A DNA stretch of 64,000 bases from an uncultured bacterium (GTDB taxonomy: Bacteria > Verrucomicrobiota > Verrucomicrobiia > Verrucomicrobiales > DEV007), in NCBI GenBank assembly GCA_963977015.1, contig CAXBMO010000012.1, positions 102,602 to 166,601 on the forward strand. Reading direction: 5' to 3'. Below the pieces are notes generated by a model. That model had not been told where the DNA came from and did no database searches. It saw only the letters and a list, made by a program, of their open reading frames with translations. The stretch's first letter is position 1. Each line of letters begins with the position of its first letter. The position numbers and the translations under genes were made by a program. Shown piece after piece: positions 1 to 53,038 of the stretch.

Positions 1-1
1 C

Positions 2-3000: not shown

Positions 3001-5248
3001 AACGATCGGCGGCGACGTCGAGATCACCGATACCACGGTCGAGTTGAACGGCGAGCAGGGAATTTCGATGGAGGACGTTACCGGTGACGTGACCCTCACC
3101 ACGGTCCAGGCGCTGGAGAATGGCACGGCTCTGGAAGAGATGCGGAAGGACGGAGTTTACATCCTGAATCTGGACGGCACGTTGACGGTCGACGATAGCG
3201 AATTTTCGGACAACGAGGGCCACGGTCTCTACGTCGAGAATGGCACGTCCATCATCGTCTCAGGCACGCTTGCCTCTGGAAACGCCGAAGACGGGTTCAA
3301 CTTCCTGAACGTGGGGTCGGTTGAATTCGATACGGTCGAAACGCAGGGCAACCAGAACGGAGTTTACATCGAGAACGCCTCGTCGTTCCGCGATTCCAGC
3401 GGGCGCCACGATTCCAACCGGGAAGACGGCATCTCGCTGATGTCGGTCAGCGGTTCGGTTGCGTTCAACAACACCACCGCGTCCGGCAATTTGTCGAACG
3501 GCGTTTACGCGACGAACGTGGGCGGCGTTAATCTTCAAGGCGTCACGTTGAGTGGGAACGGCAGCCGGGGCCTCCTCGTGGAAGGCGGCGGAAACGTGGA
3601 CATTTCCAAGAGCAGCGCCAGCGGCAATGGCGAAGTCGGGTTCGAACTGCAGGATGTCAGCGACATTACCCTCAAGAACGTGGAAGCGACGAAGAACGGC
3701 ACCGGACTTCTCGTCGAGAGCGCGCGCTCGCTCGAGGACGTCGGAGGGAGCTATGAGGCGAACCGGAAAGACGGGATGAACCTGCGGAAGCTGCGGTCCG
3801 TGGAGCTGACCCAGACCACTGCGAGTGGCAATGGCGGCAACGGGATTCAGATCTCCAACCTCAGCGGTGATCTGACCGTGTTGCAGGGCACCTTTATCGG
3901 GAACAGCCTCACCGGCCTTGCCGTCAGTGGGGTTCGCGGGATTCGTATCTCCAATACCCAATCGACCGGCAACGGTTCGAAAGGCTACGATTTGGGGAAC
4001 GCAAGCAGCGTCAATCTGGTTAGTGTCGTCGGCAGTCAGAACGGTTATATCGGTCTCGTTGTTGAGAACGCGGGCAGCTTCTCCGACCTCAACGGTGACT
4101 ATAATTTCAACGGAGTCGGGGGCGTGTTCCTCATGAACATCCCGGTCGCGGATCTGACCGGAACGTCGTTCGTCGGCAATGGAGTCTTCCCGATTCAGAT
4201 GATTAACGTGGGGCTTGCCACCTTCCTCGACGTGGAGTGGGACGACGAACTGGAAGGCGCCAGGGTCGGCACCATCGTCCTGGGGCCGGGCGATTACCGG
4301 ATCGAAGATTTTGAGAACGTCGGTGTCGATGAAATCGAGCTGCTGGATGGAGCGACGTTGCTCGGCAATGGTGAGACCAGCGCCACGATCACCACTCACG
4401 AAGGTTCTCGTCTGGCGCCAGGAATTTACGAGCCGGGGATTATTCGTTCGCACGGCGTCACCTTTGAGAAAGGCTCCACCTTTGAAGTCCAGATTGGTGG
4501 GCTTACCGCCGGAGTTGGGGCAGGATTCCACGATCAACTTCAAGTGGTAGGTTCGGTCGTGATCGAGAACGCAACCCTCGAGCTGTTGGCCTTTGGTGGA
4601 TTCCAACCTTCGTTCGGACAGGATTACGTGATCATCGACAACGATGGCTCTGACGCTGTGAAGGGGAATTTCGAGGGACTTGAAGAAGGAGCCTCGATTT
4701 CGCAGTTCCTCGGATCGAGGATCAGTGCCCGAATCAGCTACGAAGGTGGCGACGGAAACGATGTCGTTGTTTCAACGCTCGTCCCCGGAGAGCTGATGCG
4801 TTATCTGGAGGAAGAAGGGTTTGATCGTTTCGATCTGTTGGGGAGAAATGATTTGCTGAGCGACCGCTGGATGTCCGGTAACATTTTTGCTGGATTTGCC
4901 GCTTACGGATCGCTTGGGATTCAATCTCCGCTCTTGGCTGGAGCGGTCGCTCCCGGCACCTCGGTATATATTACCCTTTACGGCGAAAATGGGATGATCG
5001 TGGGACAGCAGTTGGCGACGGCCGACGCTTCTGGAAACTGGGTTGCCGTGATGCATGGAGCAAACGTCTCCGGGCAGGTTACGAGAGCCTCGATTCAGAC
5101 GACTTCAGCCGATGGCGCCTTGGTCTACTTCGATTCTTACTTCGTGAATTTCGGGACGAACTCAAATGGATCGGCCTTCTCCGTGGGGGATCTGGATATT
5201 ACCGGAAGACTGGTGAGTCCAGTTGACCAGGCCCTCGATAACGGGTGA
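2..5248 (+). CDS. Giant secreted repeat protein, 5' end outside window (Ca-binding GGxGxD-type repeats, three Calx-beta-like modules, parallel beta-helix repeats)
   Basis: Frame 2 is open from nt 2, so the TTG at 80 used by the ORF track is not a real start. Motifs GGDGVDQF, GGSGADTF, GGDGDDVF, GEDGNDEF, GGGGDDLI, GGLGSDTF are present. Three tandem ~110-130 aa modules each begin [VI][VI]xESGxST and end in ..DDD. These are followed by many NGxxG[ILV] beta-helix turns and a C-terminal ISYEGGDGNDVVVSTL module. The 761-aa antisense ORF is a shadow. Confidence 0.8.
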   Translation, partial: DGSLSAPTIQISGNTDDDTFNFSPSTLSGDVTILGGDGVDQFLLHDLPNLDVVNRNETDRQTISLDGQEGSDQYTVNLVGEDVDYVINVSDSGSVTDIDSMIINATDEADTILLRKNFVASLNGNAADGFTDDVERINYDSTINARLRINLAGGDDNFVSDDNSTLTTVDGGSGADTFQIGQVFANDRVAPNVAAGDEIETIEVTRGFLTKGISVPMTIYGGDGDDVFSVYSNQAPLRMEGEDGNDEFIIRAFVRADDDSSTSTEEALVEGGGGDDLIHYNINANVSINGGTGFDKVVAIGTELADHFVITENGIFGAGLNITVSNVEEAIEVDGLEGDDTFFVQSTAAGVVTTLIGGLGSDTFNVTGDVNATIHAAEAEGRSGVINHVADSDDPSYEGIAAPGIQLNVADSATTKVVIEKSGSSTTVSEDVDGSVDTYEIYLNEALPDAGAEASITVSAAQSASKELAEGGQTVEISTDGVNFAAALVLTFNAGNWTTHRTIHVRAGSDTVKEGEKNVIVSHSIESNRDVLDGISIANMEVAVFDDDKDELIITESGPSTSVTENGATDTYTVALTHEPAPGETVTVTLNHDDTQLTLSDDTLTFGDEDSANPWNVPQTVTVTAFNDDVVENTIRELITHDVTSTGTFSVSEAPTINVSVTDDDIGGVIVEESGGSTVVVDGGAGDSYTLRLSKEPENPVTVNVLADDQTLVSSADVRFTAAVGDNPPMITFDHTNWNLAVTVDVEANPDFEGGDAQTIKFAVQPHLTNRIQGPLVIEGGTGSGPDRTLAIPVTLPTEDNAPPADLDLTEDESLNRDTVNVFNDDSVADDTGVLTEDNLSGLGMGSDSIVVPGTGGGPDVTIQDGITYRDVEQLNVNLGSGSDTFTINSVGADLLLDLGDGDDQVDILNDSGAITDSITILGQDGDDDVIGDTATMVDTFTFDGGEGIDDLELTNFTITGAAGDVDEASGDGIYGLNLQNVTITESSFSESTVAGIRLETIGGDVEITDTTVELNGEQGISMEDVTGDVTLTTVQALENGTALEEMRKDGVYILNLDGTLTVDDSEFSDNEGHGLYVENGTSIIVSGTLASGNAEDGFNFLNVGSVEFDTVETQGNQNGVYIENASSFRDSSGRHDSNREDGISLMSVSGSVAFNNTTASGNLSNGVYATNVGGVNLQGVTLSGNGSRGLLVEGGGNVDISKSSASGNGEVGFELQDVSDITLKNVEATKNGTGLLVESARSLEDVGGSYEANRKDGMNLRKLRSVELTQTTASGNGGNGIQISNLSGDLTVLQGTFIGNSLTGLAVSGVRGIRISNTQSTGNGSKGYDLGNASSVNLVSVVGSQNGYIGLVVENAGSFSDLNGDYNFNGVGGVFLMNIPVADLTGTSFVGNGVFPIQMINVGLATFLDVEWDDELEGARVGTIVLGPGDYRIEDFENVGVDEIELLDGATLLGNGETSATITTHEGSRLAPGIYEPGIIRSHGVTFEKGSTFEVQIGGLTAGVGAGFHDQLQVVGSVVIENATLELLAFGGFQPSFGQDYVIIDNDGSDAVKGNFEGLEEGASISQFLGSRISARISYEGGDGNDVVVSTLVPGELMRYLEEEGFDRFDLLGRNDLLSDRWMSGNIFAGFAAYGSLGIQSPLLAGAVAPGTSVYITLYGENGMIVGQQLATADASGNWVAVMHGANVSGQVTRASIQTTSADGALVYFDSYFVNFGTNSNGSAFSVGDLDITGRLVSPVDQALDNG
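2880..4210 (+). repeat. Intragenic array of ~22-25 aa parallel beta-helix (PbH1-like) coding repeats inside the giant protein
   Basis: The translation shows reiterated units such as NGEQGISMEDVTGDVTLTTVQALE, NEGHGLYVENGTSIIVSGTLAS, NAEDGFNFLNVGSVEFDTVETQG, NQNGVYIENASSFRDSSGRHDS and NGGNGIQISNLSGDLTVLQGTFIG. Boundaries are approximate. Confidence 0.6.
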
Positions 5249-6289: not shown

Positions 6290-6401
6290 AATCGTCATAA
6301 GTTTCATTTTTCCAATTTGGAGATTTGTTAGAAAGTCTCAGTTTCCCTGACTTGGTAAATGTTAGGGAATTCTTACGAATGCGATTGCATTTTGTGAAAA
6401 C

Positions 6402-8408
6402 ATGTTAGGGTGGCCCCAAAGCATGACAGCACGACAAAGGGTTCAACTTTGGAAGGCGGGCGATTTTTTCGTTGCCCTCCTGATTTTCCTAACACTATCA
6501 GTATCAACGCTGATGGCCGAGGAAGCGTCTACAAAGGCCGCTGCTTCTGAGGATCGGGGGCTTTCGGCGTGGATGGCAAAGCGATTTCAGCGAAAGGGCG
6601 GAGAATCTGCCCCAGCGACAGGGGAAACGGAAACACTCAAGGCGTCGGCAGAAGTTGAAGCCGTAGAACCGCCGCTTACCACCGAACTTTATCCGGCAAA
6701 ACCATCGAGCACCAACTACAAGGGCACGCGATTCGAAAGGGACGTTGAAGAGGTTTTGGAAGGCCTGTATGAGGGGCTGGAAACCCGAGCGGAACAGATC
6801 GATGATCCTGAGTTGCTGACTGGAAATTTGTCCGGCGTGTTGGATGAATCCGGCAAGTTTGACGCGGTTTGGAATGATCTTATCCGGCAGGGTTTTTGGC
6901 CGGCCCAGAAGCAGGTCACCCGAAGCGTTGACGAGACCTATGCCTTGTCTCTGCTTCACTCGAACCAGGTTCGATCCGCCACCAAGACTCCCTTGATCCG
7001 GGAAACCGCGTTGGTTGAGGCCGGGGAAACGTATGCCTTGGAGGCGTTCGCGGAAGGGGATATCCAACATTCCGACGAGCCAACGGGATCCTTGCTGTCG
7101 ACTGGAAGCACCGGGCGGTTTGTTCAGGACGACAAGAATGGCGAAGTTGGCGTTCGAAAGCGGTTTTTGACGGGAACGGAACTTCGCCTCTCGAATCAAT
7201 TGGGCACGCTCGACAACAATTCTGACTTCTTGGATCCCAATCCCCAAACCAGCTCGGAAGTCGGGATTTCACTGATTCAGCCTATTTTTCGTGGGGGAGG
7301 CTACCAGTATCACCAGTCGATTTTCCGGCTCGCCGAGTTGGATAGTGAGGTTGCATCGGTCGGTTTTCTGCGTGGATTGGAAGGGCATTTACTGACGGTG
7401 AACCAAGCCTATTGGGGAGTCTATCTGGCTCGGGCCGCCTATCTCCAGCGAAAGGAGATGGTGAAGGAGACCCGGGACATTCTCGCGAAAATGGATGATC
7501 GAGCGAGATTGGATGCCGACGCCACGGCTTCGGAACGGCTTCGTGCTCAAGCCACGTTGAAGAAGCGGGAAGCGGATTTGGCCCGCACCAAGATGCAGAT
7601 CAAGATTGCGGAGGAAAGGCTTCGTGCCCTCGTCAATGATCCTGACATGCCCATGGGATCCACCGGTGAAATGATTCCGGTGACTCGTCCTCAGCTGTCG
7701 CTTCCGCATGAAGACGTCCGTTTGGCGGTGGTCATGGCTCTCAACAATCGAGGAGAAGTCGTCCAAAGTGCGTTGGCGGTTCGCGCGGCCGTGATCCGAT
7801 GGAATCAAGCCGTCAAGGATCTCAAGCCTCAGCTGGATATCGTTGCTGAAGTCGGAGTCTCGGCATTGGATCGGGATCGAGATCTGGGAGGTGCCTATAG
7901 TGACCTCTCCGGACAGGATCCAGCCTGGAGGGCGGGGATTCGTTTCAGCCAGCCTCTGGAACGTCGATTTGTTCGCGCCAAGGTTCAACGCAGGGAGTTG
8001 GAATATCAGCAGGCGGTGGATAATTTCATGATTCGGGCCGACCAGATCATGTTGGAATCGTTGGTCAGCTATCGGGAAATGTTGGCCTCCTATCGTGATA
8101 TGACAGGAAAATACGAGGCGGTAACGGCGTCTCGCGAAGACCTGCATCAACTGAGGGATCGTCTCAATATTGATGCCGATGGCAATCGCAACACGGTCTC
8201 CTATCAACTGCAATTGATCTTGGATGCAATGGACCGGAACAAGCAGGCTGAGGAAGAGTTCCTCGTCAGCGTCGTTACCTACAATACGGCTCTGGCTGCG
8301 TTGGAGCAGTCCAAAGGAACCTTTCTCCAATATAACAACGTCGAGATTTTGAGGGAAGAGACCGATGACGTGCTCGAGTCCGACTCCCTGAAGGTTCAGA
8401 TGCGTTAA
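6402..8408 (+). CDS. TolC-family outer membrane efflux protein (long N-terminal extension)
   Basis: Hydrophobic N-terminus FFVALLIFLTLSVSTLMA. Two coiled-coil/barrel halves are typical of OEP proteins (LAELDSEVASVGFLRGLEGHLLTVNQAYWGVYLARAAYLQRKE; LESLVSYREMLASYRDMTGKYEAVTASRED). At 668 aa it is longer than typical TolC. Confidence 0.7.
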   Translation: MLGWPQSMTARQRVQLWKAGDFFVALLIFLTLSVSTLMAEEASTKAAASEDRGLSAWMAKRFQRKGGESAPATGETETLKASAEVEAVEPPLTTELYPAKPSSTNYKGTRFERDVEEVLEGLYEGLETRAEQIDDPELLTGNLSGVLDESGKFDAVWNDLIRQGFWPAQKQVTRSVDETYALSLLHSNQVRSATKTPLIRETALVEAGETYALEAFAEGDIQHSDEPTGSLLSTGSTGRFVQDDKNGEVGVRKRFLTGTELRLSNQLGTLDNNSDFLDPNPQTSSEVGISLIQPIFRGGGYQYHQSIFRLAELDSEVASVGFLRGLEGHLLTVNQAYWGVYLARAAYLQRKEMVKETRDILAKMDDRARLDADATASERLRAQATLKKREADLARTKMQIKIAEERLRALVNDPDMPMGSTGEMIPVTRPQLSLPHEDVRLAVVMALNNRGEVVQSALAVRAAVIRWNQAVKDLKPQLDIVAEVGVSALDRDRDLGGAYSDLSGQDPAWRAGIRFSQPLERRFVRAKVQRRELEYQQAVDNFMIRADQIMLESLVSYREMLASYRDMTGKYEAVTASREDLHQLRDRLNIDADGNRNTVSYQLQLILDAMDRNKQAEEEFLVSVVTYNTALAALEQSKGTFLQYNNVEILREETDDVLESDSLKVQMR

Positions 8409-8452
8409 TTGTTTTTAGCTGCGAAAGGTTTTTTTGAAGGTATGCTGGGCTG

Positions 8453-12538: not shown

Positions 12539-12865
12539 CTATTCAGTCGCGGCGGGTTCCGCACTTTCCGAGCCACCAGCTCCTTTGCTGATCTGGCGCA
12601 GTACTCCGGCAAGGGTGTTTACCAGATTGGCGGCGCTACTCGGAGTCATCGCAATTCGTGATTGGATGGGCAGAACGTGATTGTTGCTGGACTGATCTGA
12701 AATGATTCCCGTCGAAAAATCGAGGATGATTTGGTCGCGTCCACTGTTGACGATGACCTGATTGGCAAAAACGGCAGAGGTTTCCTCATAAAGAATACGG
12801 ACATTTGGTTTTCCGTGTTGTTCGAGTTGAACTGGATCAGTAGCAGGCGTGGTTGAATCACTCAT
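12539..12865 (-). CDS. DUF3467-like small protein (paralog 2)
   Basis: ATG start. The core VRILYEETSAVFANQVIVNSGRDQIILDFSTG...VLPIQSRIAMTPSSAANLVNTL matches my memory of the DUF3467 pattern (YAN..v....EfiLDF ... R+imsP..ak.L...L). It is a clear paralog of the upstream gene. Confidence 0.65.
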   Translation of the reverse strand: MSDSTTPATDPVQLEQHGKPNVRILYEETSAVFANQVIVNSGRDQIILDFSTGIISDQSSNNHVLPIQSRIAMTPSSAANLVNTLAGVLRQISKGAGGSESAEPAATE

Positions 12866-13515: not shown

Positions 13516-15384
13516 ATGAGTACCACTTCCCTTCCCGCCGAATCCCATCTTCAGGCGTTGGGTGCATCCAATGCCCAACCGCAGGATTGGTCTGCTGAAA
13601 TTCAGTCGATCCTGGGACTTGGAAGTGATGATGAGTTTCTTGCCGCCGTCGTGTCGCTGGTGGCAAGTGTGACGAAAGCCGGTGGGAGTTTTCTGTTTGT
13701 TCCCAACGGTCCGGAGGGGCGGCCCCAGTGTGCCGTGAGCCGGATGTTGACCGGCGTAAGCCTTGAGTTGTTGAACTCCGAGCGGGTTCAGGGCGGGATT
13801 TCTCAAACGATTCGAGATGGAAAGATTACGCAGATCGAAGTCGTCAATCACGGGAAGCCTTCGGTGTGGATCAATGTTCCGAGCCCAAGTCTCTCTACCG
13901 GCCGGTGGAGTTTGTCGGCATTGGTGGAGAATACCGATCGATCCCGGTTGGAGGACGCCACTTCGCTTTTGCAGATGGTGACGCTTTTGCTGGATCAACG
14001 AAGGCGCTTGGGAAATACAGGAAAGCTGAAGGCCGGATTCAGCCAGGCCACTCTGTTTCTGGAGCTTTTGTGCCGGACCGGAACGGATGTGGAGTTGGAG
14101 CGCTCGGTGGCGACCCTCGCCAATGACCTGAAGGGGTTTGTCGACTGCCATCAGGTTGCCATTGGAATTGGGAACCGCCGAAGCTGCCGCGCCAGCGCAA
14201 TTTCAGGAGCGGGTCGATTCGATCGCCGTGCGCAACCGGCCATCCATCTTCGCGCCTTCATGGAGGAGGCGATCGGAGTGGATTCGGCAATCTGTTGGCC
14301 CTATACCAAAGATCTGCCCCGAGAGGTGATGGTGAGTGGAAATCACGATCGGTTGCTGGAGGTTCTGGACATCAAGTTTGCGATGGCGATTCCCCTCAAG
14401 ACGGAAGAGGGCGATACCGTCGGGGCCGTGGTGTTTCTCGATCAGGCAGGGAGTTCATCACTGGTTCGACGTTGGGAACTTCTTCAGGCAATGTCGCCTC
14501 ACGTCGCCGCCGTGACGCGGTTGATGGCGTCCAGTAAACCGCGCGGAAAATGGGCCGTGATCCGGCGGAAACTGAAAGAGAAATCCGGCGCGAAACGGTT
14601 GGTGATCGGGTTGTTGGTTGCCGCCTCGATGGCAGCCATGTGGATACCCGTTCCCTATTCCATTTCAGCAAGATGCCAGTTGGAACCTGTGGTGACCCGG
14701 CAGATTGCGGCTCCCTTTGACGGGGTGCTGGCTCGTCCCGAAGTGAAGCCTGGCGCGATGGTGGTGGAAGGCCAGTTGCTCGCAACGTTGGACGGAAAAG
14801 AGATTGGCTGGAGGCTGGCCGAAGCGGTGTCGAAACATGACATTGCCTTGAAACGCCGGGCCCAGGGAATTGCCAACGATGATATTCAATCCGCTCAATT
14901 GGCGGATCTGGAGGTGAAGGCCAAGGCTCTTGAAGTCAAGATCTTGCGGCATCATCAGCTGAACCTTGAGGTCCTTGCCCCGATTGACGGCATGGTCCTC
15001 AGTGGCGATCTCAAGCAATCAGAGGGGGTGCCCGTTTCGAAGGGTCAACAGCTGTTCGAAATCGCAAAAATTGACCAGTTGCGGGTGGAGATCGGGGTCC
15101 CCGATTCCGAGGTCAGTCACATCCGTACCGGGATGAAGGTAAATCTCCGACTGGACTCCCAAGTGCAAAGTCATCTGGAGACGGAGGTGGACTCCATCAG
15201 CCCCGCCTCGACCGCAAAAGACAATCGCAATGTGTTCGTCTGTCATGCCTCAATCGGGAATGAAGCGGGATTGTTGCGACCTGGAATGCAGGGAAAGGCG
15301 AGGATCTGGTCCGATCATCGGAAGTTGGGCTGGATAGTCTTCCATAAACCCTGGGAAACGATTCGGCGCTACCTTTGGTTCTAA
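13516..15384 (+). CDS. HlyD-family membrane fusion protein with ~330-aa cytoplasmic GAF-like N-domain
   Basis: The N-domain ends in a GAF-like pattern (AMAIPLKTEEGDTVGAVVFLDQ). A single TM segment (LVIGLLVAASMAAMWIPV) follows, then a biotin-lipoyl-like hairpin (GAMVVEGQLLATLD), a coiled coil, and a beta-barrel (LAPIDGMVLSGDL..GVPVSKGQQLFEIA). Confidence 0.7.
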   Translation: MSTTSLPAESHLQALGASNAQPQDWSAEIQSILGLGSDDEFLAAVVSLVASVTKAGGSFLFVPNGPEGRPQCAVSRMLTGVSLELLNSERVQGGISQTIRDGKITQIEVVNHGKPSVWINVPSPSLSTGRWSLSALVENTDRSRLEDATSLLQMVTLLLDQRRRLGNTGKLKAGFSQATLFLELLCRTGTDVELERSVATLANDLKGFVDCHQVAIGIGNRRSCRASAISGAGRFDRRAQPAIHLRAFMEEAIGVDSAICWPYTKDLPREVMVSGNHDRLLEVLDIKFAMAIPLKTEEGDTVGAVVFLDQAGSSSLVRRWELLQAMSPHVAAVTRLMASSKPRGKWAVIRRKLKEKSGAKRLVIGLLVAASMAAMWIPVPYSISARCQLEPVVTRQIAAPFDGVLARPEVKPGAMVVEGQLLATLDGKEIGWRLAEAVSKHDIALKRRAQGIANDDIQSAQLADLEVKAKALEVKILRHHQLNLEVLAPIDGMVLSGDLKQSEGVPVSKGQQLFEIAKIDQLRVEIGVPDSEVSHIRTGMKVNLRLDSQVQSHLETEVDSISPASTAKDNRNVFVCHASIGNEAGLLRPGMQGKARIWSDHRKLGWIVFHKPWETIRRYLWF

Positions 15385-15392
15385 GCAAAGCA

Positions 15393-17633
15393 ATGACCAC
15401 GGGAAAACCAGATTATGCCGTTCGAGATTGGATCGCGTCGAAACCCAGAATTCGGGACCAGGTTCGGTTTCATTATCAGGACGACAACGGAACGGCCATT
15501 TACGTTTTAGAGGATCTCGTCAATCGCAGTTATATCCAGATTGGAGTTCCGGAATACCGATTTCTCCGTGGGCTTGATGGCAGCCGAACGGTGGCGCAAC
15601 TGCTTTCCAGCAGCGCCGGGAAACAGGGTGAGGAGGGATTGAGCGAGGACGATGTTTCCAGTTTGTTGCGGTGGCTTCTTGATCAACAGCTCCTCGAACC
15701 TGAAGACGGTGAGCAGGGCGAACGCAGGTTTCTTCATCACGAAAGCCAGTCCTCTCCGCAACGAGGGAGCCCTCTCATGAAGCTGTTGTTTTGGAGGATC
15801 TCGCTGGGGAGTCCTGATCGATTTTTCCATGCGTTAAACCGACTTTTTGGCTGGTTCTTTTCGCTTCCTGCCATGCTGGTCTGGTTGGGGACGATTGGCT
15901 ACGCAGCGTACCTGGCGTCGACCCATTGGCGGGCGTTGGTGGATGCCGGGTCCAGGGCAGTCTTGCCGGGCAACTGGCTTTCTCTCATTTTGGTCTACGT
16001 GGTCCTGAAGGTGTTTCATGAGTTTGGTCATGGCATCGCGACGAAGCGGTTTCGCGGGGTTGTTCCGGAATGGGGAGTTCAACTGATCGCGTTTGTGACT
16101 CCGTTGACGTATGTGGATGCAACCGCCAGTTGGGCGTTTCGCTCACGTCGGAAACGTCTGATCGTCGCGTTCGCGGGAATCTACGTGGAACTGTTTCTCG
16201 CTGCGATTGCGCTCTTTGTCTGGAGTCGAACGGATCCCGGAACCGTGCAAACCATGGCGGCCAATATCGCGATAGCGGCGTCGTCGATTACCCTCTTGTT
16301 TAATGCGAATCCGTTGATGCGTTTTGACGGATATTATATGCTCAGTGATCTGTTGGGTCTTCGCAATCTGGCTCCGCGGGGACAACAGTTGATGCAGTGG
16401 TTGGGGCGCAAAGTGTTTTTCGGGGCGAAAGGGCCGATGCCTCGTGGTACCCGCCGCCAGACCGGGATTCTCTTTTTCTACGGTTCCCTTGCCGCAATGT
16501 GGCGGGTTCTCATCTTTGTCGGGATCATGGCGTTGGTTAGTCAGATGTTCCAGGGCGCCGGTCTGCTGTTGGTGGGAATTGGAATCCTCATCGGCGTTGC
16601 GACGCTTCTTTATTCGTTGATCAAGCTCCTGATTGAGGATCATGCCACGTTCCTGAGAGCGGCGGTGAGGATGGTTGTGATTTTGGGGCTGGCCGGATGC
16701 GCCCTTTGGGTGGTTCAGGTTAGCCCTGCGCCGACCGCTCTGGCGTTGGTTGAATTTCCAGACAAGGCGATTCTTCGTGCCGAGGCACCCGGATTCGTTT
16801 CTCAGGTGCTCTGTCAAGATGGAGATCGCGTGGCCAAGGGAGACCTGCTGGCCATTCTGGAAAACGAGGAAGAAAAAGGATTGCTGGAGCAGTTGGAGTT
16901 GGATCTGAAACGCTCTCGACAGCAAGCGCTCCAGTATTTGGATCAGGAACAGGTATCCTCTTATCAAGCTGAATTGGACGTGCAAATGGGGTTGGAGGAG
17001 CGGTTGTCCACGCAGCGGCAGAGAGTTGCGTCCCTCGAGTTTCGTTCGCCCATAGCGGGAATTGTTCGCGAGGCGAAACTGGATTCAAAACCCGGGCGAT
17101 ATTTGCGGACCGGCGAACGCTTTCTGTCGGTATATCCGGACGTGGCACCTCAGTTGCTGATCTCAGCCCGGCAAGATGATGCCGAGGCGTTGGGAGAGAC
17201 CGCGCCGCGGATTCGTTGCAGACTTCGAGGCCGCCCCAATGAGATGGTCGCCGTCATTCATCGAATCGAAAAGCGGGCAACGGTCGCGGTTCCACACTGG
17301 GCCCTGGCCGCGAGTTCGGGAGGTCCCCTTCCGGTTCGAGAGGTTTCTCAAGGGAATGAGAAGGAACAGGGGCTTGCGGCGAAGGCGTCAGGCAGTGAGG
17401 CCCTCAATCACTTTCGTGGAGTGCGCCCGGAAATGGAAGGGATGTCTCAAGAACTTTCTCGTCCCCGGATGGTCGCTTATGCAACGCTGGAATCCGTTCA
17501 GGAAGCCATGGCGCTTCGAGAAGGTGAGTGGGGCCACGCGAAGCTCACGCACGGAAATCGCGAGCGTCTGGGGAGTTGGATCTATCGGAAGACGTTCAAC
17601 TATCTGCGAAGCCGATTCGAACAGCGTATCTGA
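15393..17633 (+). CDS. Fusion protein: PqqD/RRE-like N-domain, M50 (site-2 protease family) zinc metalloprotease, and HlyD-type adaptor
   Basis: PqqD-like segment VRFHYQDDNGTAIYVLEDLVNRSYIQIGVPEYRFLRGLDGSRTVAQLL. HEFGH at nt 16017-16031 and NANPLMRFDGYY (M50 NxxPxxxxDG motif) lie within a polytopic region. The C-terminal part is HlyD-like (VLCQDGDRVAKGDLLAILEN, coiled coil, FRSPIAGIVREAKL). ATG 15393 is 8 nt after the upstream stop. Confidence 0.8.
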   Translation: MTTGKPDYAVRDWIASKPRIRDQVRFHYQDDNGTAIYVLEDLVNRSYIQIGVPEYRFLRGLDGSRTVAQLLSSSAGKQGEEGLSEDDVSSLLRWLLDQQLLEPEDGEQGERRFLHHESQSSPQRGSPLMKLLFWRISLGSPDRFFHALNRLFGWFFSLPAMLVWLGTIGYAAYLASTHWRALVDAGSRAVLPGNWLSLILVYVVLKVFHEFGHGIATKRFRGVVPEWGVQLIAFVTPLTYVDATASWAFRSRRKRLIVAFAGIYVELFLAAIALFVWSRTDPGTVQTMAANIAIAASSITLLFNANPLMRFDGYYMLSDLLGLRNLAPRGQQLMQWLGRKVFFGAKGPMPRGTRRQTGILFFYGSLAAMWRVLIFVGIMALVSQMFQGAGLLLVGIGILIGVATLLYSLIKLLIEDHATFLRAAVRMVVILGLAGCALWVVQVSPAPTALALVEFPDKAILRAEAPGFVSQVLCQDGDRVAKGDLLAILENEEEKGLLEQLELDLKRSRQQALQYLDQEQVSSYQAELDVQMGLEERLSTQRQRVASLEFRSPIAGIVREAKLDSKPGRYLRTGERFLSVYPDVAPQLLISARQDDAEALGETAPRIRCRLRGRPNEMVAVIHRIEKRATVAVPHWALAASSGGPLPVREVSQGNEKEQGLAAKASGSEALNHFRGVRPEMEGMSQELSRPRMVAYATLESVQEAMALREGEWGHAKLTHGNRERLGSWIYRKTFNYLRSRFEQRI

Positions 17634-17646
17634 TCCCTTTTTGCCG

Positions 17647-19548
17647 ATGACGATGCTCACCAAATCTCCAGCCACCTCTCCACCGCTGCGCAGTCCTCGC
17701 CCCTACAAAAAGTGGCTTCTGGAGATCGACCGCCAAGGCCAGTGGATGGCGGATCAGTCGACCGAGGCATTGCGGGAAAAGGTGGCGGACTGGCAGGAAC
17801 AACTGCGCTTTCGGCGCATCTCGCGGGAACAAATCCGGATTCCCGCCTTCGCCCTGGCCCGGGAAGTTGCGTTTCGCACGACTGGTCTTCGAGCCTACCC
17901 GGAACAACTCTTCGGAGCACTGGCCTTGACGAAAGGGGCGGTTGCCGAATTGGCCACGGGAGAAGGAAAGACGTTGGTGGCGATGTTGGCGGCATTCCTG
18001 TTTGCGCTGGAGGGAAGGGGCGTTCATGTGGTGACGGTCAATTCCTATCTTGCCGAGCGCGACGAAGCCTTTGCCCGCTCTTTCTTCGATTCTCTGGGGT
18101 TGACGGTCGGGCTTTTACCGGAGCGGGGAAATCCCGCCGCGAAGCGGGAAGCCTATGGCAAGGATGTTACCTATGGGGTGGGTTATGAGTTTGGGTTCGA
18201 CTATCTACGGGATCAGTTGGCCTTGATCCGTCAGCCGAAATTGCGTCCCACAAAGAAGCTCGAGCGTCTGTTTCTGAATCAATCTGTCGTACAAGAGGTA
18301 ACGGTGCAGCGTCGTCTTGCGTTTGCCATTATTGATGAGATTGACAGTGTGTTGATTGATGAGGCAGGGTCGCCACTTGTCGTGGCAGAGGCATCCCGGA
18401 ACACAGGTGCATTGGCCCGGCCCTACGAATTGGCCCATCAGGTTGCCGGCCAATTGGAGAAGGGGATTCACTATCAGAATGGCAGTTCCGGCAGGACTCC
18501 AGCCTTCACCCGGGAAGGGAAACGACGCATTGACGAGGTTCCGGATGTTCCCTGGGATCTTCTGAAACGGCCCTGGCCTTACTATGTAGCGAATTCACTG
18601 GTTGCAAGGGAGGGATATCACAAGGAGGAGCATTATATTATTCAGGATGGCAAAATCGTGATCGTGGATGAATTCACCGGCCGGGCCCACGAAGAGCGTT
18701 CCTGGCAACGAGGCCTTCACCAAGCCGTCGAGGTCAAGGAGTCAGTCACCGTGCAACCGGAGATGGAGTCTGCCGCAAGCATTACCCGGCAACGGTGCTT
18801 TGGGCTCTATCAACAGATCTGCGGCTTGACCGGAACCGCGTCCGAATCGGCACATGAATTTCGCTATTTTTTCAAGCTCCCTGTTCTCCGGGTTCCCCTT
18901 CATCGCCCTAACCAACGTGAAAGCCTGAAGGATCGTGTCTTTGTGAACCAGGAAGCGATGTTGAATGCGGTCGTTGAGGAAATTGCGCAGCGTCACGCCA
19001 CCGGTCAACCGGTTCTTCTCGGAACACGGACGATCCAGGTGAGTCAGGAAATTTCGAAACGATTGACCGAACGACAGATCTCGCACCAGATTTTGACGGC
19101 GAAGCAGGACGAAGAGGAAAGTGCCATCGTTGAAAGTGCGGGGAGTCCGGGAAAGGTTTTGGTCGCGACAAATATGGCAGGGCGGGGCACCCACATTCCG
19201 GTTCCGCAGGAATCCCTGGAGCTGGGCGGCCTTCATGTCATCGGGGTTGAGCGAAATGAGTCCGTCCGGATCGATCGCCAATTGATCGGCCGGACGGCGC
19301 GTCAGGGGCAACCGGGTAGTTCGCAGTTTTTCATCAGTGCCGACGATGCCCTATTGACGGTCTTTGCGCCGCGCGTATCGGCGGAATGGAAGAACATGCC
19401 TTGCAAAGCAAACGGACAACTACCCGGCCATCTGGCGCGCATCTACCGCCAGGTTCAGCGCAAAGCGGAAAAGCAACGCTATCAGCAACGGATCCTGACC
19501 GCGAAACGCGATGAATGGATCGATCAAACTCGCCGCATCCTGGGCTAA
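17647..19548 (+). CDS. SecA-like ATPase, C-terminally truncated paralog (about 630 aa)
   Basis: Walker A ELATGEGKTLVAML, VHVVTVNSYLAERD, Walker B IIDEIDSVLIDEAGSPLVV. PPXD-like YIIQDGKIVIVDEFTGRAHEERSWQRGLHQAVEVKE, NBD2 GQPVLLGT...ATNMAGRGTHI...GGLHVIGVERNESVRIDRQLIGRTARQG. The protein ends ~60 aa after NBD2. ATG 17647 is chosen because the 17176 start overlaps the previous gene. Confidence 0.8.
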   Translation: MTMLTKSPATSPPLRSPRPYKKWLLEIDRQGQWMADQSTEALREKVADWQEQLRFRRISREQIRIPAFALAREVAFRTTGLRAYPEQLFGALALTKGAVAELATGEGKTLVAMLAAFLFALEGRGVHVVTVNSYLAERDEAFARSFFDSLGLTVGLLPERGNPAAKREAYGKDVTYGVGYEFGFDYLRDQLALIRQPKLRPTKKLERLFLNQSVVQEVTVQRRLAFAIIDEIDSVLIDEAGSPLVVAEASRNTGALARPYELAHQVAGQLEKGIHYQNGSSGRTPAFTREGKRRIDEVPDVPWDLLKRPWPYYVANSLVAREGYHKEEHYIIQDGKIVIVDEFTGRAHEERSWQRGLHQAVEVKESVTVQPEMESAASITRQRCFGLYQQICGLTGTASESAHEFRYFFKLPVLRVPLHRPNQRESLKDRVFVNQEAMLNAVVEEIAQRHATGQPVLLGTRTIQVSQEISKRLTERQISHQILTAKQDEEESAIVESAGSPGKVLVATNMAGRGTHIPVPQESLELGGLHVIGVERNESVRIDRQLIGRTARQGQPGSSQFFISADDALLTVFAPRVSAEWKNMPCKANGQLPGHLARIYRQVQRKAEKQRYQQRILTAKRDEWIDQTRRILG

Positions 19549-19563
19549 AACCACAACCATCCT

Positions 19564-20382
19564 ATGACTCGACTCCTTGTTGCCCTTTTCCTGTTCACCA
19601 GCCCCTTGATCGCTCAAGACGGCCATTTCGAAGTTCTCACGACCCTGCGACCTTACCAGAGTATTGAACTTTCGACGACCGAACGCGGCGTGATTCGTGA
19701 AATCCTGGCTCAACCGGGTGACGAGGTCGTGGCTGGCCAGGTTCTCATCAAGTTGAATGCGGAAACCATCGCTGCGCGATTGGCTCAAGCCAAGATTCAA
19801 GCCAAGCACAGCGGTCTCGTTGTCGCTGCAGAAGCCGGATACAATCTCTCCAAAGACCGGTTCGAAATTGTTTCTCAACTCAAGAAGCGAGGAACCGCGA
19901 ATGCCGCTGAACTGGATCGGGAGTTGGCGACGTTCAAGGCGCGCGAAGGCGAGTTGATGGCGGCCCGTGAACAGCAGGAGCTTTTCGGGTATCAAGTTCA
20001 ACAGATTGAGGCGGAGCTGGAACAGCGATTTTTGCGAAGCCCGATCGATGGTGTGGTCACCGATGTCGCGAAGGATGTTGCTGAAGCCGTCGGGCAGAAC
20101 CTGGCGTCTGAGTCGCCCTATCTGATTCGTGTTGTGAATCTCGACCAGCTCTCGTCCAAAGCTCACATCCCCTATGTTCACGCTCAAAATCTCCAACTCG
20201 GTCAGGTCCTCAAAATCCGCCTGGAAGACGGGAGGCAGACCGAGGCCGAGGCGGAAATTGAATTCATTTCCCCAATTGTTGAGCCGGCCACCGGAACCGT
20301 TGAGGTTCGGCTGGTGGTGCAGAATCTGGAGCGCAGGTATGTCAGTGGACTTCCGTCCAGGTTGCTCGTTCCCATCAAGTAA
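19564..20382 (+). CDS. HlyD/RND-adaptor-type periplasmic membrane fusion protein (signal peptide)
   Basis: Signal peptide MTRLLVALFLFTSPLIAQ, lipoyl-like hairpin GDEVVAGQVLIKLN, coiled coil, LRSPIDGVVTDV, beta-barrel. The start is 15 nt after the SecA-like stop. Confidence 0.7.
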   Translation: MTRLLVALFLFTSPLIAQDGHFEVLTTLRPYQSIELSTTERGVIREILAQPGDEVVAGQVLIKLNAETIAARLAQAKIQAKHSGLVVAAEAGYNLSKDRFEIVSQLKKRGTANAAELDRELATFKAREGELMAAREQQELFGYQVQQIEAELEQRFLRSPIDGVVTDVAKDVAEAVGQNLASESPYLIRVVNLDQLSSKAHIPYVHAQNLQLGQVLKIRLEDGRQTEAEAEIEFISPIVEPATGTVEVRLVVQNLERRYVSGLPSRLLVPIK

Positions 20383-20476: not shown

Positions 20477-21208
20477 GTGGTGACCCCATTCCGGCAATTC
20501 CCAATTTCAGATGCAGCTTCAGCGACCCTTTTTGTGTTGGGCCTCGCTGTGTTCGGGATGGGGTCCGCTTTTGCGGAAGAACGTGCCGATGGGCTGGCTT
20601 CCGGACTGGCGGCGTCTGCGTTTGCTCCGGAGCCGGTCACAGAGGAGGATTTTGCGGAGTTGAAAGAGCATTCGCCCTTTCTCCGTCCCCTCGATCTCTC
20701 GCAATCATTGGTCCTCACGGGATTGGCTGAGGTTGATGGGAAGCTGATCGCGACCCTCCGCCACCGCAAAACCAAGGAAACCCACGTCGTTTCAGGTTCG
20801 AGCAGTGCCAACGCACTTGGCTGGCAACTGGTCGGCGTTGAAGGGGATCAGAACGATCTCCAGACCCTGAGTGCCCGGATTTCGGTTGGGAGAGGGGAGG
20901 TCGTTTCGATCGGTTTCGATGATCAGCAGCTTCGTCCCCGCACCGTCCTGATCGGGCCGAAGGTCCCTGCTTCCGAAGCCAAGAGGATCGCGAAAGAGGC
21001 GCAGAATTATCGAAGGGGGATCTCGGCAGACGGCTTTTCGGGGGCGCCCCCACGGGAGTTGGCGGACAAGCTGTCGAGGTTGAGCGAAGAACAGCGTGGT
21101 CGTCTTATCTACCAAGTTAGTGAGATGCGAAAGAAGGGGGTGAGCAGCGAGGAACGCCGCAAGGTTTTTGTTCGCATGGTGGATCAGGCGCTACCCAAAG
21201 GACGGTAG
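20477..21208 (+). CDS. Hypothetical exported protein
   Basis: Hydrophobic N-terminus LFVLGLAVFGMGSAFA and a basic helical C-terminus. No recognisable domain. The start codon (GTG) is uncertain. Confidence 0.45.
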   Translation: MVTPFRQFPISDAASATLFVLGLAVFGMGSAFAEERADGLASGLAASAFAPEPVTEEDFAELKEHSPFLRPLDLSQSLVLTGLAEVDGKLIATLRHRKTKETHVVSGSSSANALGWQLVGVEGDQNDLQTLSARISVGRGEVVSIGFDDQQLRPRTVLIGPKVPASEAKRIAKEAQNYRRGISADGFSGAPPRELADKLSRLSEEQRGRLIYQVSEMRKKGVSSEERRKVFVRMVDQALPKGR

Positions 21209-39022: not shown

Positions 39023-39223
39023 GAAAGCATCCCAATCGAATCAACCGGCCCTTGCAAGTGTAAAAGATGGTTCGGGGAGAGTCAAGGGACTCCTTGGAAT
39101 CTAGTAGCACGAGAGGAATATGGGTAGCGAAGGATTGGCATCAATTTCATTCAGACCCTTCAGCCATGGTAGTCCACTGAGCCTGTCACTTGCAGAGCTC
39201 TGTGCGTCCATCTACGGTCGTTC

Positions 39224-53010: not shown

Positions 53011-53038
53011 GTTTCCCCATTCTGACCCCTGTAGAGAA

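What the first reader, a model, noticed from the sequence alone, without database searches (positions are those of the whole stretch)
13516..20382. Three HlyD adaptors, an RRE-M50 protease fusion and a truncated SecA-like ATPase in one operon, TolC nearby, no conventional pump: candidate undescribed secretion/processing apparatus
Seen in the sequence:
- Four co-directional genes are separated by only 8, 13 and 15 nt.
- Gene (i) encodes a GAF-like cytoplasmic domain, one TM segment and a HlyD adaptor.
- Gene (ii) encodes a PqqD/RRE-like domain, a polytopic M50 metalloprotease (HEFGH at 16017-16031; NANPLMRFDG) and a HlyD adaptor.
- Gene (iii) encodes a SecA-type motor.
- Gene (iv) encodes a signal-peptide HlyD adaptor.
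- A TolC-like gene lies at 6402-8408 in the same AT-richer island.

Established knowledge: HlyD/MFP plus TolC normally work with an inner-membrane ABC, RND or MFS energiser. M50 proteases process peptides in rSAM systems such as B. subtilis yydFGHIJ (YydH). PqqD-like domains are RiPP leader-recognition elements.

No ABC/RND/MFS gene is present anywhere between 5 and 21 kb. The only NTPase is the SecA-like protein.

Inference: a SecA-like motor could feed an unfolded peptide or protein into an M50/MFP/TolC conduit, possibly coupling leader cleavage to export. I do not know of a described system with this composition.
Basis: partly seen in the sequence, partly recalled or inferred. Interest (0 to 1): 0.85.

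Follow-up and report, generated by a model that had tools for sequence, protein, structure and literature searches.

The report
SecA-like export module beside giant gene
The four-gene cassette (three membrane-fusion adaptors, one of them fused to a leader-binding domain and an M50 protease, plus a truncated SecA ATPase) with a nearby TolC-like channel is real and widespread; comparative genomics described it in 2015 but nobody has tested it, and here it turns out to be genomically tied to very large proteins that carry an N-terminal 'LEPR-XLL' leader, which points to a dedicated secretion and processing machine for them.

Summary
Four co-directional genes with gaps of 8, 13 and 15 nt encode: a cytoplasmic-domain/TM/HlyD adaptor; an RRE/M50/HlyD fusion; a 633-aa SecA lacking the wing domain, two-helix finger and C-terminal tail; and a signal-peptide HlyD adaptor. 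A TolC-like gene lies 5 kb upstream. I found no ABC/RND/MFS pump anywhere in the 64-kb window.

The composition is not undescribed. Kamneva, Poudel and Ward (PLoS One 2015, PMC4452313) reported this module, including the same gene order in Methylobacterium extorquens, and proposed the SecA_DEAD protein as the ATPase. I found no functional follow-up.

New here:
- The N-terminus of the M50 fusion folds like lasso-peptide RRE proteins.
- Truncation of the SecA-like protein is uniform across the family, and its ATPase motifs are intact.
- In 21 of 38 fully flanked related loci, a protein with an N-terminal LEPR-XLL motif and no Sec-type hydrophobic core lies within 10 kb.
- In the reverse direction, 14 of 27 LEPR-anchored metagenome loci have module genes upstream, several as GAF-HlyD|M50-HlyD|SecA-like|HlyD|LEPR-giant.

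In this window an 8,880-aa gene ends 8 kb upstream of the cassette, but its N-terminus could not be retrieved.

Best reading: a leader-dependent, SecA-like-driven, T1SS-like exporter of LEPR-XLL proteins. It is a new member of a known, uncharacterised kind.

The parts
1..5248 (+). 3' end (1,748 codons) of an 8,880-aa giant gene; candidate cargo. Its N-terminus lies about 21 kb upstream of the window.
   Evidence: The frame is open from base 2. The gene caller on the source contig gives an 8,880-aa product ending 13 nt before the next gene. Pfam finds Beta_helix and NosD repeats. The C-terminal Ig-like module is shared with giants lying directly upstream of modules in L001, L002, L023, L036 and L064. 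LEPR-XLL status is untested.
6423..8408 (+). TolC-like outer-membrane factor (OEP), 661 aa, with a signal peptide.
   Evidence: Pfam OEP 1e-13; TIGR01844 TolC family 4e-13, below its cut-off. Orthologues sit next to the module in 21 of 38 fully flanked loci. A hydrophobic N-terminal segment is present.
12539..12865 (-). DUF3467 protein (108 aa); recurrent accessory gene of the module outside Planctomycetota; fold and role unknown.
   Evidence: Pfam DUF3467 1.3e-6. It lies immediately upstream of GAF-HlyD on the same strand in L002, L023, L044, L050, L054, L064 and L167. At least 11 homologues sit on contigs of the same length as contigs of M50-HlyD homologues.
13516..15384 (+). Gene i: cytoplasmic (GAF-type by orthology) domain, one TM segment (residues 362-380), periplasmic HlyD-type adaptor.
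   Evidence: It lies immediately upstream of M50-HlyD on the same strand in 61 of 67 loci.
15393..17633 (+). Gene ii: RRE-like domain (residues about 18-100), 7-TM M50 metalloprotease (residues about 150-441), periplasmic HlyD-type adaptor (residues about 450-746).
   Evidence: The family has 3,540 representatives at 50% identity with E<=1e-30.
16017..16031 (+). HExxH zinc-binding/catalytic motif (H209, E210, H213).
   Evidence: Invariant in 16 homologues.
16299..16331 (+). FNANPLMRFDG, the second M50 motif (NxxPxxxxDG type); D312 is the predicted third zinc ligand.
   Evidence: F303, N304, N306, P307, L308, R310, F311, D312 and G313 are invariant. The ligand role follows from general knowledge of site-2 proteases.
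17647..19548 (+). Gene iii: truncated SecA-like ATPase (NBD1, PPXD, NBD2 and the first part of the scaffold helix; no wing domain, two-helix finger or C-terminal tail).
   Evidence: In 30 family members Walker A, DExD and the motif VI arginines are conserved 30/30, and 27 of them could be measured with a tail of 77-99 residues (mostly 77-83) after motif VI.
19564..20382 (+). Gene iv: short HlyD-type adaptor with a signal peptide. In all gene orders tallied where both are present it directly follows the SecA-like gene, except in two loci where no short adaptor was detected next to the SecA-like gene.
20558..21208 (+). 216-aa signal-peptide protein of unknown function; possible accessory.
   Evidence: Gene call. 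No family match. A homologue lies just downstream of the module in L013.

Best explanation
This locus is a member of the conserved 'secondary SecA_DEAD / type-I-secretion-like' module first described in silico by Kamneva et al. 2015. I read it as an envelope-spanning export and processing machine for proteins that carry an N-terminal LEPR-XLL leader instead of a Sec signal peptide. Here the cargo is most likely the neighbouring 8,880-aa protein.

Proposed sequence of events (all steps inferred):
1. The cytoplasmic RRE domain of the M50-HlyD fusion binds the leader.
2. The truncated SecA-like ATPase, which keeps its preprotein-binding domain and ATPase motifs, threads the unfolded chain from N to C.
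3. The membrane-embedded M50 site removes the leader.
4. The three different HlyD-type adaptors (two anchored through the GAF and M50 proteins, one free in the periplasm) form the periplasmic sleeve that docks on the TolC-like trimer.

Shown: domain content, active-site conservation, RRE fold, conserved synteny, absence of a pump, and two-way genomic linkage to LEPR-XLL proteins. Inferred: cargo identity, leader binding and cleavage, the driving role of the SecA-like protein, and what forms the inner-membrane passage.
For: Module identity.
- Same five proteins as the published module, and the same gene order as in M. extorquens.
- All five genes are adjacent in L002 and L003 and in 14 of 38 fully flanked loci from GTDB species-representative genomes.
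- There are two fixed gene pairs, GAF-HlyD then M50-HlyD and SecA-like then short HlyD, and the pairs are permuted between lineages.

Leader-peptidase logic.
- The N-terminal domain matches TbiB1/B1 RRE structures.
- Residues 18-413 align end to end with the daptide RiPP protease model.
- The HExxH and NxxPxxxxDG motifs are invariant.

Motor.
- ATPase motifs are conserved in 30 of 30 family members, with uniform truncation.
- The PPXD is retained.

Cargo.
- Neighbouring large proteins carry the NCBIfam NF012209 LEPR-8K motif above its cut-off in L017, L021, L022 and L059.
- The motif occurs in 29 of 80 loci overall and 21 of 38 fully flanked loci.
- It sits 18-69 residues from the predicted start of the ORF, preceded by polar or basic residues and with no hydrophobic core.
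- Reverse search from LEPR N-termini: 14 of 27 loci with at least 7 kb upstream carry module genes and 10 of 27 carry M50-HlyD. L089, L097, L103, L105 and L109 read GAF-HlyD|M50-HlyD|SecA-like|HlyD followed by the giant gene, and in L095 (cut at the contig end) M50-HlyD|SecA-like|HlyD precede it.
- Giant genes abut the module or its OEP in L001, L002, L023, L036, L064, L167 and this window, and they share a C-terminal domain with the window's giant.

No pump.
Against: - The N-terminus of the window's own giant protein could not be retrieved, and no LEPR motif occurs in any frame of the window. The local cargo assignment therefore rests on analogy.
- The SecA-like gene lies within 10 kb of M50-HlyD in only 16 of 38 fully flanked loci, so it is either shared in trans or dispensable.
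- No component is an obvious inner-membrane protein channel. In L078 a complete ABC exporter occupies the SecA-like position, which may mean the SecA-like protein needs a separate channel such as SecYEG.
- Genomic linkage could reflect co-regulation or another functional tie rather than substrate status.
- The Pfam M50 and NCBIfam protease scores are below the curated cut-offs.
- There are no experimental data for any member. In M. extorquens, only the GAF gene was detectably expressed in exponential phase.
Confidence: 0.55

Rival explanations
1. Two-step route. The SecA-like ATPase is an accessory SecA2-type motor that delivers the cargo through the housekeeping SecYEG channel into the periplasm. 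M50 acts as the equivalent of a signal peptidase, and the three adaptors plus the TolC-like protein then expel the protein from the periplasm.
For: - The module encodes no channel-forming inner-membrane transporter.
- In L078 an ABC exporter with its own TM domain replaces the SecA-like gene. This is what one would expect if the SecA-like protein supplies only the motor.
- Gram-positive and mycobacterial SecA2 proteins work with SecY (general knowledge), and the protein scores highly, though below cut-off, on SecA2 models.
Against: - The family uniformly lacks the wing domain, the two-helix finger and most of the scaffold domain. These are the parts canonical SecA uses when engaging SecY (general knowledge).
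- LEPR-XLL leaders lack the hydrophobic core that opens the SecY lateral gate.
- The tight SecA-like then short-HlyD gene pair points to direct coupling with the adaptor assembly.
Confidence: 0.2
2. Exporter and maturase for small ribosomal peptides (RiPP-like), as the first reader leaned towards. The RRE-M50 protein trims a short precursor modified by neighbouring enzymes (rSAM, halogenase, methyltransferase), and the adaptors plus TolC export it.
For: - The RRE fold and the end-to-end similarity to the daptide RiPP protease.
- rSAM, Trp-halogenase-like and O-methyltransferase genes lie between the TolC-like gene and the cassette in this window.
- Some LEPR-motif neighbours are only 200-600 aa long.
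Against: - None of the tailoring genes recurs next to the module in the 80 genome loci or the 80 metagenome loci.
- No conserved small precursor gene was seen.
- A SecA-type motor with a preprotein-binding domain is not known from RiPP export (my knowledge).
- The conserved neighbours are very large proteins.
Confidence: 0.1
3. A signalling or quality-control device rather than a secretion system. The M50 protease performs regulated intramembrane proteolysis under control of the GAF sensor, regulating expression or turnover of envelope proteins, and the adaptors merely tether it to the outer membrane.
For: M50 proteases are classically site-2 proteases in signalling (general knowledge). GAF domains are sensory. 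In M. extorquens the GAF gene is expressed separately from the others.
Against: Three membrane-fusion adaptors, a TolC-like channel and a SecA-type translocation motor with conserved ATPase motifs are hard to explain without transport. The RRE points to recognition of a leader peptide.
Confidence: 0.07

Closest known systems
Secondary SecA_DEAD / T1SS-like conserved locus (Kamneva, Poudel, Ward 2015, PLoS One, PMC4452313)
   Same: Identical protein set: a GAF-HlyD protein, a Peptidase_M50-HlyD protein, a SecA_DEAD protein without wing/scaffold, a HlyD/biotin-lipoyl protein and sometimes an adjacent OEP. No ABC transporter is present. The gene order matches M. extorquens AM1 META1p2402-2399, and the phyla match.
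   Different: As a locus, nothing essential differs. The paper named no cargo, did not recognise the RRE domain and did not mention giant or LEPR-XLL proteins. In this window the OEP and a giant gene are separated from the cassette by about 5 kb of non-conserved genes.
Type I secretion systems (HlyB-HlyD-TolC; giant RTX adhesin exporters such as LapBCE)
   Same: A membrane-fusion adaptor plus a TolC-family outer-membrane factor, association with very large repetitive surface proteins, and no Sec signal peptide on the cargo. Homologues of the window giant's C-terminal part are annotated as RTX-like calcium-binding proteins.
   Different: There is no ABC transporter. There are three different adaptors instead of one. 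The motor is SecA-type. The putative signal is N-terminal (LEPR-XLL) rather than C-terminal. An M50 protease and an RRE are fused to an adaptor. No RTX repeats (PF00353) were found in the window's part of the giant.
Peptidase-containing ABC transporters for bacteriocins and RiPPs (C39-ABC with a HlyD-type accessory protein, e.g. CvaAB-TolC)
   Same: The logic of coupling leader recognition and cleavage to export through an adaptor/TolC conduit.
   Different: The protease is an intramembrane M50 enzyme with an RRE rather than a cytoplasmic C39 domain. The energiser is SecA-like rather than ABC. The cargo is apparently proteins of hundreds to thousands of residues.
RiPP M50 leader peptidases (daptide intramembrane metalloprotease, NF041824; YydH/LiaK epipeptide protease, NF058609)
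   Same: Residues 18-413 align with positions 1-372 of the 379-position daptide protease model (5e-44). The core at residues 196-323 matches YydH/LiaK. The HExxH and NxxPxxxxDG motifs are present.
   Different: Scores are far below both equivalog cut-offs (150.9 against 300; 37.5 against 225). The protein is fused to a TM segment and a HlyD-type adaptor, and it is embedded in a SecA-like/OEP module rather than a RiPP biosynthetic cluster.
Accessory SecA2 systems of Gram-positive bacteria and mycobacteria
   Same: A second, divergent SecA dedicated to special cargo, often very large adhesins. The protein scores highly on SecA2 models. Kamneva et al. place the clade next to actinobacterial SecA2.
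   Different: The protein is below every SecA2 cut-off. It lacks the wing domain, two-helix finger and tail. There are no SecY2 or Asp partners. It occurs in diderm bacteria together with adaptors and an outer-membrane factor.
SecA_DEAD/PPXD domains embedded in Omnitrophota and actinobacterial giant proteins (West-Roberts et al., bioRxiv 10.1101/2023.11.21.568195)
   Same: A truncated SecA (DEAD plus preprotein-binding domains, no scaffold/wing) associated with giant proteins and suggested to help export them.
   Different: There the SecA-like region is part of the giant polypeptide and sits next to T2SS-like loci. Here it is a separate 633-aa protein in an adaptor/M50/OEP module.

Membership tests
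Kamneva 2015 secondary SecA_DEAD / T1SS-like module | SecA_DEAD protein that has lost the wing/scaffold domain | tested here: met
   SecA_DEAD, PP_bind and P-loop_SecA are the only SecA domains found. The alignment stops at B. subtilis SecA residue 609 of 841. Tail length is uniform across the family.
Kamneva 2015 secondary SecA_DEAD / T1SS-like module | Co-encoded Peptidase_M50-HlyD, GAF-HlyD and HlyD/biotin-lipoyl proteins | tested here: met
   with synteny. GAF is seen only in orthologues, not in the window protein itself.
Kamneva 2015 secondary SecA_DEAD / T1SS-like module | OEP protein sometimes adjacent; no ABC transporter in the locus | tested here: met
   The OEP gene is at 6423-8408. 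No ABC signature was found in the window. A true ABC exporter is adjacent in only 1 of 80 related loci.
Type I secretion system | Inner-membrane ABC transporter as energiser and channel | tested here: not met
Type I secretion system | HlyD-family membrane-fusion protein and TolC-family outer-membrane factor | tested here: met
   TIGR01843 and TIGR01844 score below their cut-offs.
Type I secretion system | Cargo with an uncleaved C-terminal secretion signal, usually with RTX repeats | tested here: inconclusive
   No PF00353 match in the last 1,722 residues of the giant, although homologues carry it. The C-terminal signal itself cannot be recognised by sequence.
Canonical SecA (TIGR00963 / PRK12904 equivalogs) | Full-length score above the curated cut-off; scaffold, wing and two-helix-finger domains present | tested here: not met
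   559.6 bits against a cut-off of 800, and 550.8 against 814. The C-terminal third is missing.
Accessory SecA2 (TIGR03714, TIGR04221, TIGR04397, NF012136) | Score above the curated cut-off; partner SecY2/Asp proteins or mycobacterial context | tested here: not met
   All scores are below cut-off. No SecY-like gene is present in the window or in related loci.
Peptidase family M50 (site-2 protease type) | HExxH in a TM helix plus a downstream NxxPxxxxDG motif supplying the third zinc ligand; polytopic membrane domain | tested here: met
   The motifs are invariant. Seven TM segments are predicted. The Pfam score of 22.2 is below the gathering score of 27.2, so membership rests on the motifs plus the NCBIfam hits.
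Daptide intramembrane metalloprotease (NF041824 equivalog) | Score of at least 300 bits; located in a daptide biosynthetic cluster | tested here: not met
   150.9 bits. No daptide biosynthetic genes are nearby.
RiPP recognition element (PqqD-like winged helix-turn-helix) | Three-stranded sheet followed by three helices; structural match to known RREs; binds a leader peptide | tested here: inconclusive
   Topology and fold match are met (TbiB1, 6jx3, CteB, LynD). Pfam PqqD is not hit. Leader binding cannot be tested here.
LEPR-XLL (NF012209 'LEPR-8K') proteins, as the proposed cargo class | N-terminal LEPR-XLL motif on the neighbouring giant protein | not testable with these tools
   The N-terminus of the 8,880-aa protein lies about 21 kb outside the window and the protein is absent from the searchable collection. 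The feature is met for neighbours in related loci.

The most novel reading that the evidence does not exclude
The module is a distinct, still unnamed protein secretion system of diderm bacteria. An N-terminal LEPR-XLL leader on proteins of up to about 9,000 residues is read by an RRE borrowed from RiPP biosynthesis and cleaved by an intramembrane M50 protease. The chain is driven by a SecY-independent, truncated SecA motor through a heteromeric three-adaptor/TolC conduit. That would be SecA-type energisation of a T1SS-like channel, and it would explain how the signal-peptide-less giant proteins of Planctomycetota and Verrucomicrobiota reach the surface.
Probability: 0.4. Interest if true: 0.88.

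Novelty: new member of a known kind. Interest (0 to 1): 0.62.

Why it matters
It has stood since 2015 as an in-silico curiosity with no cargo and no experiment.

Linking it to LEPR-XLL proteins provides three things:
- a concrete, testable substrate class;
- a predicted recognition element (the RRE) and a predicted cleavage enzyme;
- cultured organisms in which to test the idea.

If the reading is right, it would add a secretion route in which a SecA-type motor, not an ABC transporter, energises a TolC-linked conduit. It would extend RiPP-style leader recognition to giant proteins. It would also account for export of some of the largest bacterial proteins, which are abundant in marine PVC bacteria and probably shape their surfaces and interactions.

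Tried and rejected
1. DUF3467 as a SecB-like chaperone. No PDB relative was found by sequence. The AlphaFold2 model was too poor to search (pLDDT 48.5). The idea is neither supported nor excluded, so I dropped it.
2. Detecting the RRE by sequence. Pfam at E<=5 on ten N-terminal domains found no PqqD match. Only the structural route worked.
3. Retrieving the giant's N-terminus. Exact-protein look-ups with ORF-derived starts failed. After correcting the starts, the locus obtained still ended inside the gene. A homology search with the window fragment did not return the protein itself; the longest hit listed was about 3,000 aa.
4. Conservation of the tailoring genes (rSAM, halogenase, OMT, two unknown ORFs). 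There were no hits in other loci, so I rejected them as parts of the module.
5. A regular ABC/RND partner. Rejected.
6. Promoter and terminator scan of 12.8-21.4 kb. Counts were not above shuffled controls, so it was uninformative.
It was repeated with five sequences.
8. Literature searches for any functional follow-up or any LEPR-XLL link found nothing in the held library.

Full report
**Observation**

An independent gene caller on the source contig, a 272-kb Tara Oceans scaffold, gives the same four genes.

HMM scans support the domain calls:
- Gene i: HlyD_3 and HlyD_D23 at residues 394-591.
- Gene ii: M50, plus HlyD-type matches at residues 453-626.
- Gene iii: SecA_DEAD 5e-88, SecA_PP_bind 1e-21 and P-loop_SecA 3e-51.
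- Gene iv: HlyD_D23 and HlyD_3.

Three assignments need qualification.
- GAF is not detectable in the window's gene i. It scores above Pfam's cut-off at the same position in orthologues L003, L019 and L051.
- Pfam Peptidase_M50 is below its gathering score (22.2 against 27.2). However, HExxH (H209, E210, H213) and FNANPLMRFDG (residues 303-313) are invariant in 16 homologues. NCBIfam's daptide protease model also aligns over residues 18-413 at 5e-44.
- PqqD is not found by sequence. An AlphaFold2 model of residues 1-128 (pLDDT 83.7; three strands then three helices) has as its six best PDB matches the lasso-peptide leader-binding proteins TbiB1 and 6jx3 (probability 1.00, target-normalised TM-score 0.69-0.75). 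The RRE regions of CteB and LynD follow.

The TolC-like gene (OEP, 1e-13) is real; the gene caller starts it at 6423. Pfam and NCBIfam on every gene between 5 and 21 kb show no ABC, RND or MFS transporter. A motif and TM scan of the whole window, plus Pfam on its large or polytopic ORFs, also found none.

**It is already described**

A full-text search turned up Kamneva, Poudel and Ward, PLoS One 2015 (PMC4452313). [quoted passage not shown] These proteins have lost the wing/scaffold domain. They sit in a conserved locus with a Peptidase_M50/HlyD protein, a GAF/HlyD protein, a HlyD/biotin-lipoyl protein and sometimes an OEP protein, with no ABC transporter.

The authors proposed the SecA_DEAD protein as the ATPase and the M50 protein as a possible membrane pore. 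In Methylobacterium extorquens AM1 the operon order is GAF, M50, SecA_DEAD, HlyD, the same as here.

The paper named no cargo, never mentions giant proteins and reported no experiments beyond re-analysed microarray data. I found no follow-up in the held library.

**Synteny survey**

The M50-HlyD protein has more than 1,000 relatives in the indexed collection. It has 3,540 representatives at 50% identity with E<=1e-30.

- GAF-HlyD lies immediately upstream on the same strand in 61 of 67 loci that have enough sequence.
- Among the 38 loci with at least 7 kb on both sides, GAF-HlyD is present in 36, the short adaptor in 27, an OEP in 21 and the SecA-like gene in 16. All five genes are present in 14.

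There are two fixed pairs, GAF-HlyD then M50-HlyD and SecA-like then short HlyD. The pairs are permuted between lineages. Some genomes have two GAF/M50 pairs with a single SecA-like/OEP set (L019; also L027 and L075 from one genome). This fits Kamneva's remark that parts can be encoded elsewhere.

Conventional pumps are rare neighbours. One locus (L078) has a genuine ABC exporter, and it sits exactly where the SecA-like gene normally is. L012 has a divergent MacB-like gene, and L066 has a separate adaptor/ABC pair 3 kb away.

**The SecA-like protein**

It aligns with B. subtilis SecA residues 11-609 of 841. That covers NBD1, the preprotein cross-linking domain, NBD2 and the start of the long scaffold helix. 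The wing domain, the two-helix finger and the C-terminal tail are absent.

In 30 family members, Walker A (GEGKT), DExD and the motif VI arginines are conserved in all 30. In the 27 that could be measured, the tail after motif VI is 77-99 residues, mostly 77-83. This is a stable architecture and not a decayed gene. The protein is below the curated cut-offs of every SecA and SecA2 model.

**Topology**

Hydropathy gives the following:
- seven TM segments (residues 151-441) between the RRE and the adaptor part of gene ii;
- one TM segment (residues 362-380) in gene i;
- signal-peptide-like N-termini on gene iv and on the OEP.

The RRE, the GAF-type domain and the SecA-like protein would thus be cytoplasmic, and the three adaptor domains periplasmic. 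This is an inference.

**Candidate cargo**

The ORF at the start of the window is the 3' end of an 8,880-aa gene. Giant ORFs also flank the module in many related loci.

Where their N-termini are visible, they share a motif of the form L-x-(F/L)-E-x-L-E-(D/E/P)-R-(V/I)-L-F-(D/S)-A-x-P. It starts 18-69 residues from the predicted start of the ORF and is preceded by polar or basic residues, with no hydrophobic core. NCBIfam recognises it as NF012209, the 'LEPR-8K' or LEPR-XLL domain, above its cut-off in L017, L021, L022 and L059.

A strict regular expression finds the motif in the first 110 residues of a neighbouring ORF in 29 of 80 loci and in 21 of 38 fully flanked loci. Chance expectation for the pattern itself is about 0.01 per locus, by my own estimate from residue frequencies.

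I then ran the reverse test. Using LEPR-type N-termini as the query against metagenome contigs, 27 loci had at least 7 kb of upstream sequence. Of these, 14 carry module genes upstream and 10 carry M50-HlyD. L089, L097, L103, L105 and L109 read GAF-HlyD | M50-HlyD | SecA-like | short HlyD, followed by the LEPR giant gene. L095 is cut at the contig end and shows M50-HlyD | SecA-like | short HlyD before the giant. In these loci the window's cassette is followed directly by the giant gene, 13 nt after the short adaptor in L103 and L105. The linkage therefore holds in both directions.

For this window the link is indirect.
- The giant's N-terminus is about 21 kb outside the window, and I could not obtain it.
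- No LEPR motif occurs in any frame of the window.
- The giant does share a C-terminal Ig-like module with the giants lying directly upstream of modules in L001, L002, L023, L036 and L064.
- The 'giant then OEP' arrangement recurs in cultured Verrucomicrobium sp. BvORR034.
- No paper in the library connects LEPR-XLL with this module.

**Accessory genes**

DUF3467 (12539-12865, minus strand) recurs immediately upstream of GAF-HlyD in L002, L023, L044, L050, L054, L064 and L167. At least 11 of its close homologues sit on contigs of the same length as contigs carrying M50-HlyD homologues, for example locus tags CMO55_28660 and CMO55_28670. Its fold remains unknown: the comparison with SecB was negative and the model was poor.

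The methyltransferase, rSAM, halogenase-like and two unknown genes between the OEP and the cassette are not conserved with the module. I treat them as local additions.

**Mechanism**

The best-supported reading has four steps.
1. The RRE binds the LEPR-XLL leader in the cytoplasm.
2. The SecA-like ATPase threads the unfolded chain.
3. The M50 site removes the leader.
4. The three adaptors bridge to the TolC-like trimer.

In logic this resembles a peptidase-containing bacteriocin exporter or a T1SS, but with M50 in place of C39 and SecA in place of ABC.

The domains, motifs, RRE fold, synteny, absence of a pump and two-way linkage are shown. Binding, cleavage, the driving role and, above all, the identity of the inner-membrane passage are inferred.

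The main rival is a two-step route through housekeeping SecYEG. The ABC-for-SecA swap in L078 favours it. The loss of the SecY-engaging parts of SecA, and the non-hydrophobic leader, argue against it. A small-peptide (RiPP) exporter and a purely regulatory protease are less likely.

**Verdict**

The locus is a new member of a known, experimentally uncharacterised module. The added value here is the RRE assignment, the uniform SecA truncation and a specific, testable cargo hypothesis.

Noticed in passing
window 1-5248 (gene continues upstream of the window): This is the 3' end of an 8,880-aa gene. The visible part contains right-handed beta-helix/NosD repeats. Its homologues elsewhere are annotated as RTX-like calcium-binding proteins, although no RTX repeat was detected here.
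   Followed up: partly
window 5261-12527: A block of genes sits between the giant gene/OEP and the cassette: an O-methyltransferase, a radical SAM protein (best match HxsC4, below cut-off), two unknown ORFs and a Trp-halogenase-family flavoprotein. None recurs beside the module elsewhere. It could be a local tailoring set or an unrelated insertion, and it is the lowest-GC stretch of the window (0.50-0.53).
   Followed up: partly
window 12539-12865 (-); L002 7149-7736; L023 6151-6477; L044, L050, L054, L064, L167: A DUF3467 protein is a recurrent neighbour of the module outside Planctomycetota, usually immediately upstream of the GAF-HlyD gene. Its fold and role are unknown.
   Followed up: partly
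L078 5157-7046: A complete ABC exporter (ABC_membrane plus ABC_tran, 629 aa) occupies the position normally held by the SecA-like gene, directly upstream of short HlyD | GAF-HlyD | M50-HlyD. It looks like a natural energiser swap.
   Followed up: partly
L034 5186-12847 and L051 13401-20135 (C-termini): Two complete planctomycete LEPR-XLL giants share a C-terminal hydrophobic motif, roughly GYVIWxxRGG...(F/M)DPLPIL. It could be a membrane anchor or a sorting signal.
   Followed up: no
L019 (two GAF/M50 pairs, one SecA-like/OEP); L073 (two SecA-like genes); L027 and L075 (same Mariniblastus genome): Module parts are duplicated unevenly within genomes, which suggests that SecA-like/OEP sets are shared among several GAF/M50 pairs.
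   Followed up: no
window 20558-21208: A 216-aa signal-peptide protein with no family match lies directly downstream of the cassette. A homologue lies just downstream of the module in L013.
   Followed up: no
window 17647-19548, residues about 195-216 of the SecA-like protein: An insertion of about 21 residues in NBD1 relative to B. subtilis SecA, and a D-to-H change in the TNMAGRGT(D/H)I motif. I did not examine conservation of either across the family.
   Followed up: no
L167 (Verrucomicrobium sp. BvORR034, GCA_000739635.1): A cultured strain carries DUF3467 | GAF-HlyD | M50-HlyD convergent with a giant gene (more than 5,851 aa, cut by the contig end) followed by an OEP gene. It is a possible experimental host.
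   Followed up: no
literature: bioRxiv 10.64898/2026.03.19.712371: In Chlorobium chlorochromatii the giant symbiosis proteins Cag_663 and Cag_665 flank a TolC-like gene and 'lack known signals', and one secA (Cag_1676) appears horizontally acquired. Kamneva et al. list one Chlorobi species as carrying the module. This may be the same system, but I did not test it.
   Followed up: no
window 34343-39040 (-) and 52979-57646 (+): Two other very large ORFs: a 1,566-codon WD40-repeat protein with N-terminal hydrophobic segments, and a 1,556-codon FG-GAP/DUF7133/cytochrome c protein. Both appear unrelated to the module.
   Followed up: no
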